Source: a virus. From it: a stretch of 38,453 nt of DNA. The translations under genes and the position numbers were made by a program. This document shows positions 4,895 to 11,696 of the stretch, in pieces. Positions within the stretch are counted from its first letter, which is position 1, and each line of letters begins with the position of its first letter. Location of the stretch: the IMG/VR virus record IMGVR_UViG_3300029668_000007; one strand, given 5' to 3'. Below the pieces are notes generated by a model. The model was not told the origin of the DNA and did not search any database. It saw nothing but the letters and a program-made list of their open reading frames with translations.

Positions 4895-4924
4895 CCCCCT
4901 GCCACATCGGCAGGGGGAATTTTT
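4895..4924 (+). terminator. Intrinsic terminator closing the cargo cluster
   Basis: CCCCCTGCC-ACATC-GGCAGGGGG is followed by AATTTTT. It overlaps the stop codon of the convergent integrase gene. Confidence 0.75.
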
Positions 4925-6485
4925 ACGCCGCCAGTTGAAATATCGCGCATCCATGATATAATAGGAAAGTCATGCAAGACTCCGTTGCTCTGGTGCAAAG
5001 GTTCGGATTATGCCGGGCTTGGTGTACCACATCCACCAAACCCGAACCAGAAATCTCCTCCCCACGGCCCGCCAGATTGTAGGCCACGAGGACAGAGACC
5101 TTCTGGTTCGGGCTTTGTTGTACCACGATCTTATTCACCAGCATATCGATCACATTTCGCATATAATCCTCATCCTCCAGACATCCATCCGCAAAACAGG
5201 ATAGCCACCGCAGGATATCCACCTCTGTCAGCTCGGGCGCGCCGCGCTGCTCATCGGCCAGCTCGGCGGCGATGCTGGCTTTGCGCCCCTCCAGCTCGTT
5301 GATGCGACCCACCAGCGTGGCGGAGGTCGCGCCCTGCTCCACCATGCGCAGTAGGTTGTCCAGCGACCGCGTCACCTCGTCCAGCTGGCGGCGGAGGGAC
5401 ACGGCGGCGCTGTCGTCCTCGGCCTGACGCTGATATTCAGCTGCGGCGGCGTGGGCCAGTGCCTTGATGTTGTCCGGGCTGAGGAGCGTCCGGGCGTGCT
5501 CCACCACCAGCCGCTCCAAGTCGTCCTTGCGGAGGGTGGGCATCTTGCACCCGAGGCGGCGCTTGCGCCCGCTGCACGCGTAGTAGTAGTACCGCGTCCC
5601 GGAGTGATTGTGGCCGCTCTCCCCCGCCATGGGCTTGCCGCACGCGCCACAGTAGAGCTTCGTGCTCAGGAGGTAGTTGATCGTGGCCTTGGTGCGCCCG
5701 GGGGCCGTCGTGTTTTTTCGGAGCCGCTCCTGTACCCGCCGGAAGGTGCCGGGGTCGACGATGGGCGGGACTTGCCCCACCAGCTCCACCTCGCCATTAT
5801 AATGATAGGTGCCGATGTACTTCCTGTTGGACAGCAACGCGTTAAAGGAGGAGCGGTTGAACGCCTTCCCGGCCCGGGTGCGGTAGCCCTGCGCGTTCAG
5901 CTCGTCCGCGATCCGGGCGAGGCTCATGCCCTCGGCGTAGCGCTCAAAGGCCAGCCGGACGGCGGGCGCGGTGGCCGGGTCGATCTGTAGCCGCTTATCC
6001 ACGGACACATAGCCAAGCGGGATGGTGCCGCCGGTGGACAGGGCCTTGGTGGCGTTCTCGTGCATCCCGCGCGTCACGTCCTGCGCAAGCGATTTGCTAT
6101 AGAACTCGTCCAAACTCTCAAAAATGCCCTCGATCAGCGCGCCCTCCGGGTTGGCGCTGATGGGCTCGCACGCGCTGACCACCTTCACGCCATTCTGCCG
6201 GAGCCGGGCCTTGTAGACGGCGCTGTCGTACCGATTCCGGGCGAAGCGGCTGAACTTGTAGACGATGACCACCTCAAAGCCCCGGCGGCTGCTGTCGCGG
6301 ATCATCCGCTGGAAATCCTCCCGGCGCTCCACGTCCCGGCTGGCGGACAGGGCCCGGTCGGTGTACGTATCCACGACCTCGTAGCCCTCCCGGGCCGCGA
6401 ATTCCTGACAGACCCGGAGCTGCCCCTCGATACTGATCTCCTGCTGCTTCTCGCTGGAGTAGCGGGCGTAGATAACAGCTTTCAT
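4923..6485 (-). CDS. int: Large serine recombinase (integrase), 520 aa
   Basis: It has the N-terminal resolvase motif VIYARYSSEKQ, a recombinase domain, the Cys cluster CGACG...YYACSGRKRRLGC, and a coiled-coil region. Size is typical of large serine integrases. Confidence 0.9.
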   Translation of the reverse strand: MKAVIYARYSSEKQQEISIEGQLRVCQEFAAREGYEVVDTYTDRALSASRDVERREDFQRMIRDSSRRGFEVVIVYKFSRFARNRYDSAVYKARLRQNGVKVVSACEPISANPEGALIEGIFESLDEFYSKSLAQDVTRGMHENATKALSTGGTIPLGYVSVDKRLQIDPATAPAVRLAFERYAEGMSLARIADELNAQGYRTRAGKAFNRSSFNALLSNRKYIGTYHYNGEVELVGQVPPIVDPGTFRRVQERLRKNTTAPGRTKATINYLLSTKLYCGACGKPMAGESGHNHSGTRYYYYACSGRKRRLGCKMPTLRKDDLERLVVEHARTLLSPDNIKALAHAAAAEYQRQAEDDSAAVSLRRQLDEVTRSLDNLLRMVEQGATSATLVGRINELEGRKASIAAELADEQRGAPELTEVDILRWLSCFADGCLEDEDYMRNVIDMLVNKIVVQQSPNQKVSVLVAYNLAGRGEEISGSGLVDVVHQARHNPNLCTRATESCMTFLLYHGCAIFQLAA

Positions 6486-9760: not shown

Positions 9761-10356
9761 AGAGCCATGACTTTCTCCATGCCGTGCCGGGCCAGATGGC
9801 GACCCGCTTTGACCTCGGGACTCACCTCTTTGCTTCGGAGGGGTCGATCAACGCGCACAACACCTACTGCGACCCCCGAAAAATCCGAAGCGTCAAGACG
9901 CTGGAAAAGTCGCTCTGTTACAACGCACACTACCCGGTGGACATACGCGGGAGGAAGACGGCGGATAACGGGCGGACGAACCAACGCTGGACGCTGAACC
10001 TCGGAGCCTGTATCGAGTGCGAGAGCCCCTGCGAGTACGGGATGGAGCGGCTGCGGAGGCTCAAGATCCACGAGCTGTTGGAACTGGGCTGCGGGGCTGA
10101 CTGCCTCACCTGCCCGGAGCCCTGCCGGGTGTACAAGCTGGCCGTGGGGAAAATCGCGGCGGAGGAGATCCAGAAGGCCGTGAAACGGAAACAGGCCGAG
10201 GCCTTCGCCCGGGCGGCGCTGGCTCAATATCTGCCGGAGGGCGCGAAGCACAAAGGCGAAGAACAGCCCCCCAAAGGGAGAGCCCACAGACGGAGACCCG
10301 CGACGGTCAGCGGTGCGGGCGTGGAGCGGGCCGAGAAAAAGGAGGAGACCCCATGA
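9754..10356 (+). CDS. Hypothetical Cys-cluster protein (200 aa)
   Basis: The internal ATG 9754 overlaps the previous stop. The Cys motifs are CIECESPC and CGADCLTCPEPC, which could bind metal or an Fe-S cluster. Confidence 0.55.
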   Translation: MLKSHDFLHAVPGQMATRFDLGTHLFASEGSINAHNTYCDPRKIRSVKTLEKSLCYNAHYPVDIRGRKTADNGRTNQRWTLNLGACIECESPCEYGMERLRRLKIHELLELGCGADCLTCPEPCRVYKLAVGKIAAEEIQKAVKRKQAEAFARAALAQYLPEGAKHKGEEQPPKGRAHRRRPATVSGAGVERAEKKEETP

Positions 10357-10619
10357 GCACGATGGCCTTGGACACACAGGCCCGGACGATCCTTGCACAG
10401 GACACCGCCAGAGCCGCCATGAGGGCGATCCAGTCCCCGGCCTATCTGGACGAGTGCGAAGCGTGGGCCCAGAAGTGGTGGGGCCTCCCCTACGCCGTCG
10501 TCCGCCGGAAGACCCCGGAGGAGCTGGAGCCCCAGCTGACGGCGTGGCTCGACACCCTGCGCCGCCCGGAGCCGGTGCTCTGCGGGAACGTGGAGGTCAT
10601 CCCATTTGAGCGGGCGTGA
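10353..10619 (+). CDS. Hypothetical protein (88 aa)
   Basis: GGAGGAG lies upstream, the start is ATGA-coupled, and composition is coding-like. Confidence 0.6.
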   Translation: MSTMALDTQARTILAQDTARAAMRAIQSPAYLDECEAWAQKWWGLPYAVVRRKTPEELEPQLTAWLDTLRRPEPVLCGNVEVIPFERA

Positions 10620-10630
10620 TGCCCGCGCGA

Positions 10631-10694
10631 GGGAAGGTGTTTAGCGTCCGCGGCGCTGAACGGTTCGCTGGGTCGTCCCCAGCCCTTCCCACCA
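10631..10694 (+). ncRNA. tRNA-like element A (64 nt, not a canonical tRNA)
   Basis: A perfect 7-bp acceptor-like helix (GGGAAGG 10631-10637 / CCUUCCC 10684-10690) is followed by unpaired ACCA. Inside are a 9-bp stem with a 7-nt loop (UCCGCGG) and a 5-bp hairpin (CUGGG-UCGUC-CCCAG). Confidence 0.45.
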
Positions 10695-10831
10695 CGGCGC
10701 GTCTGGTCAACGTGCCGGTTGTCAGTCCCTCCTTGCGAGGGGGAAACTCTCCTTCCGTTGTGCGACAAAGCGGAAAGACGCTTGGCGGCCCGGACAGACG
10801 GGCACGTAATGAGGACGCGAAACACCAACAT

Positions 10832-10927
10832 GGGGCTGGGAGTTCATCAGGAAAAGAACGTCGCCGAAATGCGCGCGGCTGTGCTAACGCGGCGAAGGTG
10901 CGGGTTCGACACCCGCCCGCCCCACCA
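10832..10927 (+). ncRNA. tRNA-shaped element B (96 nt) with an expanded anticodon arm
   Basis: The acceptor helix is GGGGCUG/CCGCCCC with one U-C mismatch. The D-like hairpin is GUUC-AUCAGGAAAA-GAAC. A 5-bp stem (UCGCC/GGCGA) closes 25 nt. A 4-nt variable region precedes a canonical T-arm (GCGGG-UUCGACA-CCCGC), then ACCA. Confidence 0.5.
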
Positions 10928-11042
10928 ACCCCGGGGACGGTTTATCCTTCCGGCCTCCGGGACGTGCCTTGGATCAGGCACTGCATCACCTCCTAGGGGC
11001 ATGACCCCGACCCTACCCCTTCACCATCTTTTCGGGGCGGGC

Positions 11043-11100
11043 GGCCCTCTGGCGCACGGCGAACTGGTACGTCACCGGCGCTCTAAGAGGGCCTATTTTA
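11043..11100 (+). terminator. Long imperfect GC hairpin (outer helix GGCCCUCU 11043-11050 / AGAGGGCC 11086-11093) followed by UAUUUUA
   Basis: The outer 8-bp helix and inner helices (GGCGC/GCGCU, CGG/CCG) were read directly. The U-rich tail is short, so this is a probable end of the + strand non-coding transcript. Confidence 0.4.
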
Positions 11101-11105
11101 TGGGC

Positions 11106-11157
11106 AAAAAAAGGCCCCGGCGAAACCGCCGAGGCCCGAACCAAAGGAAATAGGACT
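11106..11157 (-). ncRNA. Predicted ~50-nt sRNA: 5'-AGUCCUAUUUCCUUUGGUUC + terminator hairpin + U7
   Basis: It is bounded by a near-consensus promoter (11163-11191) and an intrinsic terminator (stem 11136-11113 with one mismatch, U7 at 11112-11106). It contains no ORF and lies opposite to all flanking genes. Confidence 0.55.
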
Positions 11158-11162
11158 CTTGT

Positions 11163-11191
11163 ATTATACCACGAAAAAACCGAGAAATCAA
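11163..11191 (-). promoter_or_regulatory. sRNA promoter: TTGATT (11191-11186), 17 nt, extended -10 TGgTATAAT (11171-11163)
   Basis: Read directly on the minus strand. The -10 is perfect, has a TG extension, and the spacer is 17 nt. Confidence 0.6.
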
Positions 11192-11210
11192 ATCAAGGGA
11201 GGAAGGACAA

Positions 11211-11696
11211 ATGGGCATGAACAAAGGGATGTACACAAGTAACAGCTGCGAATGGGAAACGCCGCTTGATTTTTTTAAGGATCTGGATGCGGAGTTCCAC
11301 TTTGACGTGGACGTATGCGCCACGCCGGAAAATGCCAAATGCACCGAATATTACACCAAAGCGGACGACGGACTGCAAAAAACGTGGAGGGGCTCCTGCT
11401 GGATGAACCCGCCATACGGACGCGGAATCGGAAAATGGATGAAAAAGGCATATGAATCCGCCCAAAGCGGTGCGACGGTGGTGTGCCTCGTACCTGCGCG
11501 GACAGATACCGGCTGGTGGCATGACTACGCTATGCGCGGGGAGGTGCGCTTTGTGCGGGGACGGCTTAGATTTAACGGGCTTAATTGCAATGCGCCGTTT
11601 CCCTCGGCGGTGGTGATATTTCGGGGGAGAGCGGATTGGAAAAAGGAGGAAGGACAATGGAACGAAGAAAATGCCGCCGCTGCGGCCATCCCATGA
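11211..11696 (+). CDS. Phage Dam-like N6-adenine DNA methyltransferase (161 aa)
   Basis: The catalytic NPPY lies in CWMNPPYGRG. Small size and layout recall the phage Dam family. GGGAGGAAGGACAA lies upstream. Confidence 0.8.
   Translation: MGMNKGMYTSNSCEWETPLDFFKDLDAEFHFDVDVCATPENAKCTEYYTKADDGLQKTWRGSCWMNPPYGRGIGKWMKKAYESAQSGATVVCLVPARTDTGWWHDYAMRGEVRFVRGRLRFNGLNCNAPFPSAVVIFRGRADWKKEEGQWNEENAAAAAIP

What the first reader, a model, noticed from the sequence alone, without database searches (positions are those of the whole stretch)
10631..10927. Two tRNA-shaped elements ending in ACCA inside a non-coding locus, neither a canonical tRNA
**Element A (10631-10694, 64 nt).** It has a perfect 7-bp acceptor-like helix followed by unpaired ACCA. 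It lacks a D-arm. A 9-bp stem with a 7-nt loop (UCCGCGG) stands in for an anticodon arm, and there is also a 5-bp hairpin.

**Element B (10832-10927, 96 nt).**
- It has a 7-bp acceptor helix with one U-C mismatch.
- It has a D-like hairpin with GG in its loop.
- It has a 5-bp anticodon-stem-like helix that encloses 25 nt instead of a 7-nt loop.
- It has a 4-nt variable region.
- It has a textbook T-arm (GCGGG-UUCGACA-CCCGC), a discriminator A, and CCA.

Such minihelix-like ends are what RNase P, the CCA-adding enzyme, EF-Tu and tmRNA-type tRNA-like domains recognise.

Possible roles are all inferential:
- decoys or replacements against tRNA-targeting host defences;
- processing punctuation that releases the 137-nt RNA between them;
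- a minimal tmRNA-like module.

The serine integrase is 4 kb away and does not use tRNA-type att sites, so an attP remnant is unlikely.
Basis: partly seen in the sequence, partly recalled or inferred. Interest (0 to 1): 0.75.

Follow-up and report, generated by a model that had tools for sequence, protein, structure and literature searches.

The report
tRNA-like modules flanking phage small RNAs
Both tRNA-shaped elements in this gut-phage non-coding locus are real, and they most likely act as cutting signals for the cell's tRNA-processing enzymes, releasing a small two-hairpin RNA that is a widespread, undescribed phage motif normally found a few bases upstream of true tRNA genes.

Summary
Both elements exist as described. 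Element B (10832-10927) scores above Rfam's tRNA threshold in a sensitive search (35.6 bits). It has a 37-nt arm where the anticodon arm should be. Element A (10631-10694) is a D-armless mini-tRNA. Relatives keep both folds through compensatory changes.

They are modules of a non-coding RNA array in a temperate Bacillota phage. In 20+ related contigs the order is always mRNA | module | X | module | (Z | module) | Y-terminator. Five interchangeable module types (A-E) share only an acceptor stem, a T-arm and ACCA/ACAA, which are the acceptor-stem, T-arm and 3'-end features RNase P uses. Four of the five types follow an A(-2)U(-1) leader.

The RNA between A and B ends in a core of two hairpins with invariant G-GAMAGA-C loops (10764-10803). 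I found this core in about 30 unrelated phage groups. In nine of them a canonical tRNA begins 5-7 nt after it. It matches no Rfam family, and I found no paper describing it.

Best reading: the modules are tRNA-mimic punctuation that releases small RNAs (confidence 0.55). B probably has an additional function, because its 19-nt inner loop never varies. The tmRNA and attP readings are rejected. The decoy reading remains open. No expression data were available.

The parts
10631..10694 (+). Element A: D-armless tRNA-like module. Acceptor 10631-37/10684-90; long arm 10639-46/10654-61 with loop UCCGCGG; T-like arm 10667-71/10679-83; ACCA 10691-94.
   Evidence: Sequence. Fold z = -4.5. Identical in five or more relatives. 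All 20 pairs are kept against D-type homologues, with 5 compensatory pairs.
10695..10763 (+). 5' domain of RNA X. Hairpin a 10696-701/10711-16; hairpin b 10726-44; CU-rich single strand AACUCUCCUUCCGUUGUGC 10745-63. It starts at the base after A's ACCA.
   Evidence: Conserved in relatives, with hairpin b rewritten compensatorily in the L020/L044 type. Anti-Shine-Dalgarno-like 5-mers are enriched upstream of X cores in general, 40% against 17%.
10764..10803 (+). X core: GACA, hairpin 1 (AAGCG-GAAAGA-CGCUU, 10768-83), linker GGCG, hairpin 2 (GCCCG-GACAGA-CGGGC, 10788-803).
   Evidence: Covariance model R1 scores it 64.8 bits. The structure is 94.6% paired against 19-39% when slid, with 15-20 double changes per pair in hairpin 2. 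Found in about 30 unrelated phage groups. No Rfam match.
10804..10831 (+). 28-nt spacer between the X core and B, ending in the leader ...CAU immediately before B's first G.
   Evidence: Sequence. In other relatives this spacer is only 4-7 nt.
10832..10927 (+). Element B: tRNA-like cloverleaf with an expanded 37-nt arm (outer stem 10861-66/10890-95, inner helix 10871-74/10881-84) in place of the anticodon arm. T-arm 10900-16; ACCA 10924-27.
   Evidence: Rfam tRNA 35.6 bits. Covariation. The 19-nt inner sequence AUGCGCGCGGCUGUGCUAA never varies. B is present in every close relative.
10928..11101 (+). RNA Y. It starts at the base after B's ACCA. It has single-stranded AUCACCUCCU (10985-94), a conserved CCCUACCCC/GGGGCGGGC helix, and a long hairpin 11043-50/11086-93 followed by UAUUUUAU (terminator).
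   Evidence: Conserved in all relatives, including distant L032. Terminator-like site.
11106..11191 (-). Neighbouring minus-strand unit. Its membership in the array is uncertain. Promoter-like TTGATT-17-TATAAT with a TG extension (11191-11163) and a strong terminator (11137-11106), giving a CU-rich RNA of about 50 nt.
   Evidence: Scan. Conserved in L002, L003 and L005.

Best explanation
A and B are tRNA-mimic processing modules in a polycistronic non-coding RNA array, transcribed with the phage's early (+ strand) operon. Each module keeps the acceptor stem, T-arm and 3' ACCA that RNase P and the tRNA 3'-end machinery read.

Proposed steps (all inferred):
1. RNase P cuts at the 5' side of each module, usually after an A(-2)U(-1) leader.
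2. 3' maturation trims back to the CCA.
3. The transcript falls into the upstream mRNA, module A, RNA X (10695 to about 10810), module B and RNA Y, which ends at its own terminator.

X thus gets its 3' end the way it does in other phages, where a real tRNA sits 5-7 nt after its second hairpin.

The fold, the covariation and the array grammar are shown. Cleavage, RNA stability and the function of the released RNAs are inferred. B, with its invariant 19-nt inner loop, probably has a further role of its own, which is unknown.
For: 1. Array grammar. In every related contig the number of tRNA-like modules equals the number of junctions between non-coding RNAs: B|Y; A or B|X|B, C, D or E|Y; B|X|C or E|Z|D|Y.
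2. Interchangeable modules. Types A-E substitute for one another. They share only the acceptor stem, a T-arm with a 7-nt loop, and ACCA/ACAA. E is a bare acceptor/T-arm minihelix.
3. Boundaries. X and Y begin at, or one base after, the base following ACCA.
4. Leader. Types B, C, D and E are preceded by ...A-U|G. Bacterial RNase P prefers U(-1) and A(-2) and pairs with RCCA (PMC4919922).
5. Real tRNAs in the same position elsewhere. In nine unrelated phage groups a canonical tRNA (Asn, Gly, Pro, Gln, Tyr, Ser, Met, Arg) starts 5-16 nt after the GGAMAGAC of the X core. In 30 cases the tRNA starts 5-9 nt (mode 6) after the hairpin end, against 0.08% for random positions. In seven other groups a U-run follows the hairpin instead.
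6. L032 has the order tRNA-Met, X, C-type module.
7. The module folds are maintained by compensatory changes.
Against: - There are no expression or end-mapping data.
- In the window itself the X core is 28 nt from B, not 5-7 nt.
- Element A lacks the A-U leader.
- B's 19-nt inner loop is invariant while its enclosing stem is fully rewritten. B is kept even in relatives without X (L004, L155). A mere cutting signal would not need either.
- B's covariation rests on only two lineages.
- A itself has no sequence variation among its own copies.
- The loci used for the tRNA-spacing counts include related contigs, so the counts overstate the number of independent events.
Confidence: 0.55

Rival explanations
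1. The modules are the payload. They would be abundant acceptor-stem/CCA mimics that act in trans, for example as decoys or sponges for host toxins or defence enzymes that attack tRNA 3' ends or bodies, or B would bind a specific partner through its conserved arm. X and Y would be independent passengers.
For: B is present in every close relative, including those without X. B's 19-nt inner loop is invariant while the stem around it is rewritten. The features shared by all modules are also what acceptor-end-targeting enzymes would see. The number of modules per array varies from 1 to 3.
Against: Modules A, C, D and E are freely exchanged and lost, which fits position-dependent rather than sequence-dependent use. 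Some modules end in ACAA rather than CCA. No defence or anti-defence gene is linked. Module number tracks the number of junctions exactly.
Confidence: 0.2
2. The locus is mainly a cis-acting transcription device. The G-GAMAGA-C hairpins of X would act on the elongating polymerase, like boxB or put antitermination signals, so that transcription survives a long untranslated stretch and the Y terminator. The tRNA-likes would be secondary.
For: In Neisseria-type prophages X sits at the 5' end of up to three early transcription units per genome. In E. coli prophages, degenerate units lie downstream of the repressor-like HTH gene. In the window no + strand promoter was found between the Y terminator and the next gene. 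The loops resemble the lambda (GAAGA) and P22 (GACAA) boxB loops (own knowledge).
Against: In seven phage groups and in a Treponema chromosome, hairpin 2 is itself followed by a U-run, like a terminator. The fixed 5-7 nt spacing to tRNA 5' ends has no obvious meaning for antitermination. No partner protein is conserved nearby.
Confidence: 0.1
3. A and B are decaying tRNA pseudogenes, or copies of host tRNA fragments, with no present function.
For: Neither has a usable anticodon loop. ARAGORN rejects both. Phage tRNA arrays do decay.
Against: All helices are intact and kept by compensatory changes. The loop and T-arm sequences are invariant across lineages whose stems have diverged. The position in the array is strictly conserved. 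No canonical tRNA sharing B's D-arm was found in IMG/VR.
Confidence: 0.06
4. The locus is a tmRNA-like (possibly two-piece) module, or a DNA-level attachment site for the serine integrase.
For: A weak permuted-tmRNA match of 19.3 bits covers B's T-arm, CCA and a downstream GGGGCGG. B's inner 19 nt are conserved at the sequence level.
Against: ARAGORN finds no tmRNA. The score is far below the threshold of 47. GGGGCGG pairs within Y and stays unchanged in L032, where the upstream acceptor strand differs. There is no tag reading frame. Stem covariation argues for selection on RNA rather than on a DNA site. The integrase is 4 kb away.
Confidence: 0.03

Closest known systems
tRNA punctuation and tRNA-like processing signals (mitochondrial transcripts; MALAT1/mascRNA and MEN-beta)
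   Same: A tRNA-shaped structure without decoding function is cut by RNase P and RNase Z to define the ends of neighbouring RNAs (PMC4919922).
   Different: Those cases are eukaryotic or organellar. Here the setting is a bacterial virus, with several interchangeable module types in one array, most with an encoded CCA.
C4 antisense RNA precursor of phages P1/P7, a phage regulatory RNA matured by RNase P
   Same: A phage regulatory RNA whose end is made by host RNase P (cited in PMC4919922).
   Different: Rfam reports no C4-family match here at E up to 10. C4 is a single RNA of enterobacterial phages, not an array of separate tRNA-like modules.
Phage tRNA gene clusters that also encode small stable RNAs of unknown function (T4 species 1 and 2 RNAs; own knowledge, not checked here)
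   Same: Small structured non-tRNA RNAs are co-transcribed with tRNAs and released by the tRNA-processing machinery. X lies inside such arrays in nine phage groups.
   Different: In the window family the true tRNAs are replaced by non-decoding mimics. No sequence relation to the T4 RNAs was tested.
Canonical tRNA (Rfam RF00005)
   Same: B has the acceptor, D-arm, T-arm, G18G19, UUCGA T-loop, discriminator and CCA, and passes the family threshold.
   Different: There is no 7-nt anticodon loop: 23-25 nt form an extended arm. G stands in place of U8. The acceptor has a mismatch. A lacks the D-arm altogether.
boxB hairpins of lambdoid nut sites and the HK022 put RNA (for the X core only)
   Same: Small nascent-RNA hairpins with purine-rich GNRA-like loops, placed near the start of early transcripts. 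The loops GAAAGA/GACAGA resemble GAAGA/GACAA (own knowledge; PMC9378689 for put).
   Different: X has hexaloops, occurs across phyla, usually lies next to tRNA genes or a U-run, and has no associated N-like gene. No functional test was made.

Membership tests
Canonical tRNA (RF00005) | Score at or above the curated covariance-model threshold | tested here: met
   B scores 35.6 bits against 29 in the sensitive search. Type-2 B scores 34.6 bits. B was not reported with default filters. A gave no match at E up to 10.
Canonical tRNA (RF00005) | 5-bp anticodon stem closing a 7-nt loop with U33 and a readable anticodon | tested here: not met
   B encloses 23-25 nt that form a further helix. A has a 9-bp arm with loop UCCGCGG and no U33. 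ARAGORN calls neither in the window.
Canonical tRNA (RF00005) | Acceptor stem, T-arm with a UUCRA-type loop, discriminator and CCA | tested here: met
   B: GCGGG-UUCGACA-CCCGC, A73, CCA, and a 7-bp acceptor with one mismatch. A: perfect 7-bp acceptor, ACCA, and a T-like loop GUCGUCC.
Canonical tRNA (RF00005) | Aminoacylation and use in decoding | not testable with these tools
   Needs charging assays.
tmRNA (one-piece or permuted) | tRNA-like domain plus tag reading frame and pseudoknots; detection by ARAGORN or Rfam | tested here: not met
   ARAGORN finds 0. tmRNA_permuted scores 19.3 bits against 47. The proposed closing helix does not covary.
RNase P substrates of tRNA-like type (what it works like) | Coaxial acceptor/T-arm minihelix with 3' RCCA and a single-stranded leader, preferably U(-1) | tested here: met
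   All five module types have it. Types B, C, D and E have A(-2)U(-1). The requirement is as stated in PMC4919922.
RNase P substrates of tRNA-like type (what it works like) | Actual cleavage by RNase P at the predicted site | not testable with these tools
   Needs an in vitro cleavage assay or end mapping.
Any Rfam 15 family (for RNA X, Y and Z) | Match to a curated covariance model | tested here: not met
   No relevant match at E up to 1-10 in the window region or in 18 related loci.
Phage attachment site (attP) in a tRNA gene | Copy of the 3' part of a host tRNA next to the integrase, conserved as DNA | tested here: inconclusive
   Complete folds with RNA-type covariation. The site is 4 kb from a serine recombinase.

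The most novel reading that the evidence does not exclude
The tandem G-GAMAGA-C hairpin RNA (X) is a new, cross-phylum class of phage RNA with a dedicated function. It could be a protein- or polymerase-binding module used for antitermination, for host takeover through an anti-Shine-Dalgarno seed, or for anti-defence. Phages would deliver it by parking it 5-7 nt upstream of a tRNA or a tRNA mimic. B would be a second new functional RNA, whose tRNA body carries a conserved 19-nt effector loop to a tRNA-binding target.
Probability: 0.3. Interest if true: 0.85.

Novelty: new variant of a known kind. Interest (0 to 1): 0.68.

Why it matters
If correct, temperate gut phages build operons of small RNAs and use stripped-down tRNA mimics, rather than promoters and terminators, to cut them apart. 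This strategy is known from mitochondria and from a few eukaryotic long non-coding RNAs, and I found no description of it as a modular system in bacterial viruses.

The work also exposes an RNA motif that is conserved almost base-for-base in phages of Bacillota, Neisseria-type Pseudomonadota and Actinomycetota, and in a spirochaete chromosome. It is tightly coupled to tRNA 5' ends, has no Rfam family, and I found no description of it in the literature. A degenerate form occurs in 427 of 5426 complete E. coli genomes, which makes it experimentally tractable.

Tried and rejected
- tmRNA or two-piece tmRNA: rejected.
- Known RNA family for X, Y, Z, A, C, D or E: none found in Rfam 15.
- Literature: searches by sequence strings and by concept returned nothing that describes X or these modules.
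- X as a sigma-70 promoter, because it contains TTGRC(A): rejected. The -10 positions are not conserved, the implied start would fall inside the tRNA, and the covarying stem is unexplained.
- Minus-strand coding of the CU-rich or anti-Shine-Dalgarno-like stretches: rejected. The short reading frames are not conserved among relatives.
- Dedicated protein partner of X: none found. No ORF family within 8 kb either side is shared by more than 3 of 32 phage groups. Very small or fast-evolving proteins would be missed.
- Base-pairing target of B's conserved loop within the phage: none found. The best site, -28.6 kcal/mol, is within the range given by shuffled queries.
- Canonical tRNA ancestor sharing B's D-arm: none in IMG/VR. 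The extra hits were chance matches in a structural-protein coding region.
- More diverse B sequences from metagenomes: only two stem types exist.
- HK022 put and Tn916 canT papers: looked at, and no sequence relation could be established.
- Host search for a parental tRNA: not possible.

Full report
**Observation**

The locus 10620-11210 lies between an 88-aa ORF (10353-10619) and a Dam-type DNA methyltransferase gene (11211-11696). It sits in a + strand operon of a temperate, HK97-like phage of Bacillota. The phage carries a large serine recombinase at 4923-6485(-).

ARAGORN calls no tRNA or tmRNA in the window. Rfam with default filters reports nothing. When only 10500-11250 is searched with permissive filters, B (10833-10924) matches the tRNA model at 35.6 bits (threshold 29, E = 1e-5), with 25 nt in place of the 7-nt anticodon loop. 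A folds much better than shuffled sequence (z = -4.5). B does not stand out by energy alone (z = -1.4).

**Relatives and covariation**

Exact-pattern scans of IMG/VR and of metagenomes recovered more than 20 related contigs, including human-gut assemblies.

- B occurs in two lineages. Their anticodon-like stems are completely different but still paired: UCGCCG/CGGCGA against GCACUC/GAGUGC, with U-A and U.G intermediates.
- The 19 nt inside the arm (AUGCGCGCGGCUGUGCUAA), the D-arm and the T-arm stems do not vary. The acceptor 5' strand varies slightly.
- On 12 distinct sequences the cloverleaf is 95.5% paired, against 38-54% for slid partners. Four of six pairs in that stem show double changes.
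- RNAalifold finds the same arms independently.
- A is invariant among its own copies. It has a homologous type, D, in other relatives. Across A and three D sequences all 20 pairs hold, with compensatory changes at five.

**Array grammar**

The relatives carry five module types:

- B: a full cloverleaf with an expanded arm.
- C.
- A and D: D-armless.
- E: a bare acceptor/T-arm minihelix with a 12-nt bulge.

They share only an acceptor stem, a T-arm with a 7-nt loop, and ACCA or sometimes ACAA. Their order follows one rule: mRNA | module | X | module | (Z | module) | Y-terminator. Contigs with only Y have one module. Those with X and Y have two. Those with X, Z and Y have three. X and Y begin at, or one base after, the base following ACCA. 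Types B, C, D and E are preceded by A-U. That matches the U(-1)/A(-2) leader preference and the RCCA pairing of bacterial RNase P (PMC4919922).

**The RNA between A and B**

Its 3' part (10764-10803) is GACA, AAGCG-GAAAGA-CGCUU, GGCG, GCCCG-GACAGA-CGGGC.

- A 41-nt stretch is 97.6% identical in a prophage recorded under Helicobacter pametensis, whose relatives carry a Neisseria-type uptake sequence (my reading of the flanks printed).
- Pattern scans found the core in more than 119 viral contigs. These fall into about 30 groups that share no proteins.
- It also occurs in Tetrasphaera phage TJE1, in a Treponema genome bin and in a Kingella plasmid.
- The hairpin-2 stem varies freely while the loop G-GACAGA-C is fixed. 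One variant rewrites hairpin 1 as GCUG-GAAAGA-CAGC.
- On 43 sequences the structure is 94.6% paired, against 19-39% slid, with 15-20 double changes per pair in hairpin 2.
- No Rfam family matches. No paper was found.
- No ORF family within 8 kb is shared by more than three groups.

One caveat applies. The scans fixed the sequence of hairpin 1 or of hairpin 2. The apparent invariance of hairpin 1 is therefore partly imposed by the search.

**Coupling to tRNAs**

- In nine phage groups a canonical tRNA of varied identity begins 5-16 nt after GGAMAGAC.
- In seven groups a U-run follows the hairpin.
- In six groups a ribosome-binding site and start codon follow.
- In the window family a tRNA-like module follows.
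- Measured from the hairpin end, 30 hairpins are followed by a tRNA start at 5-9 nt (mode 6). The figure for random positions is 0.08%. The loci are partly related, so these are not 30 independent events.
- Model R1 also finds single-hairpin units (UGAC, stem, GGAAAGAC, stem) in front of further tRNAs in the same arrays.
- The 40 nt upstream of X cores are enriched in 5-mers of the 16S 3'-tail type: 40% against 17%. This is suggestive only.

**Interpretation**

The simplest account is that X is a small RNA whose 3' end is made either by a terminator or by RNase P cutting the next tRNA. The window family has replaced true tRNAs with minimal mimics that keep only what the processing enzymes need. 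This makes A and B punctuation.

B's invariant loop, and its presence in relatives that lack X (L004, L155), argue that it also has a function of its own. I found no pairing target for the loop in the phage.

A decoy role for the CCA-ended modules cannot be excluded. An antitermination role for the X hairpins is a serious alternative for X. It is suggested by X's position at the start of early operons in Neisseria-type prophages and next to the repressor gene in an E. coli prophage found in 427 genomes. The U-run contexts argue against it.

**Limits**

- Nothing here shows transcription or cleavage.
- B's covariation rests on two lineages.
- The host is not identified beyond Bacillota and the gut.
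- Bacterial genomes were scanned only with one strict pattern.

Noticed in passing
window 10928-11101 (+): RNA Y follows B. It is conserved in all relatives and in distant L032. It exposes AUCACCUCCU (10985-94), a 10-nt identity with the 3' tail of 16S rRNA (the anti-Shine-Dalgarno region; own knowledge). It ends in a long hairpin plus a U-run.
   Followed up: partly
window 11106-11191 (-): A promoter-like site (TTGATT-17-TATAAT with a TG extension) and a strong terminator on the minus strand would give a CU-rich RNA of about 50 nt. The unit is conserved in L002, L003 and L005.
   Followed up: no
L008, L045, L158, L159, L032 (e.g. L045 minus strand 1024-1265): Z is a conserved RNA of about 250 nt between two tRNA-like modules. 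It contains two T-arm-like hairpins (GGUGCGGGUUCGAUCCCCGC and GGCGGGUUCGGGGAUUCCCGCC). It has no Rfam match.
   Followed up: partly
L160 2420-3310 (E. coli NZ_CP028122.1 2273378-2274268): An unannotated 0.9-kb region lies beside a repressor-like gene of a Rac/lambdoid-type prophage, and a match to its first hairpin unit occurs in 427 of 5426 complete E. coli genomes. It has five exact GGAAAGAC, several of them in hairpins preceded by UGAC. It also has a T-arm/acceptor-like element followed by a sequence resembling the RprA seed and terminator (37 bits, below the threshold of 70).
   Followed up: partly
L046 3247-3299 (-), Treponema sp. MAG JAITHW010000004.1: A stand-alone X core lies between two apparently chromosomal ORFs that look to me like sugar-transporter binding-protein genes (the record is unannotated). 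Hairpin 2 is followed by UUUAUUU, as for a terminator.
   Followed up: no
L047 37725-37779 (Tetrasphaera phage TJE1, NC_019930.1): An X core with a compensatorily changed hairpin 2 lies inside a 1.7-kb stretch with no annotated genes.
   Followed up: no
L049 3530-4130: A tRNA-like gene with a long insertion is followed by five or more degenerate GAMAGA hairpin units within 600 nt.
   Followed up: no
relatives L003, L004, L006, L009, L138 and others: Two short hairpin cassettes are inserted at varying places in and around the array, even inside X in L003. They are R (GGGUGCGRAGCACC) and H (GCCCACRACGCG...GCGUGGAGYGGGC).
   Followed up: no
window 10869-10887: B's invariant loop contains CGCGGCUGU, which is complementary to the 16S rRNA 530-loop GCAGCCGCG (9 pairs including one G-U; 16S sequence from memory). 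A match of this length is expected by chance with probability of about 0.1-0.3, so this is only a lead.
   Followed up: no
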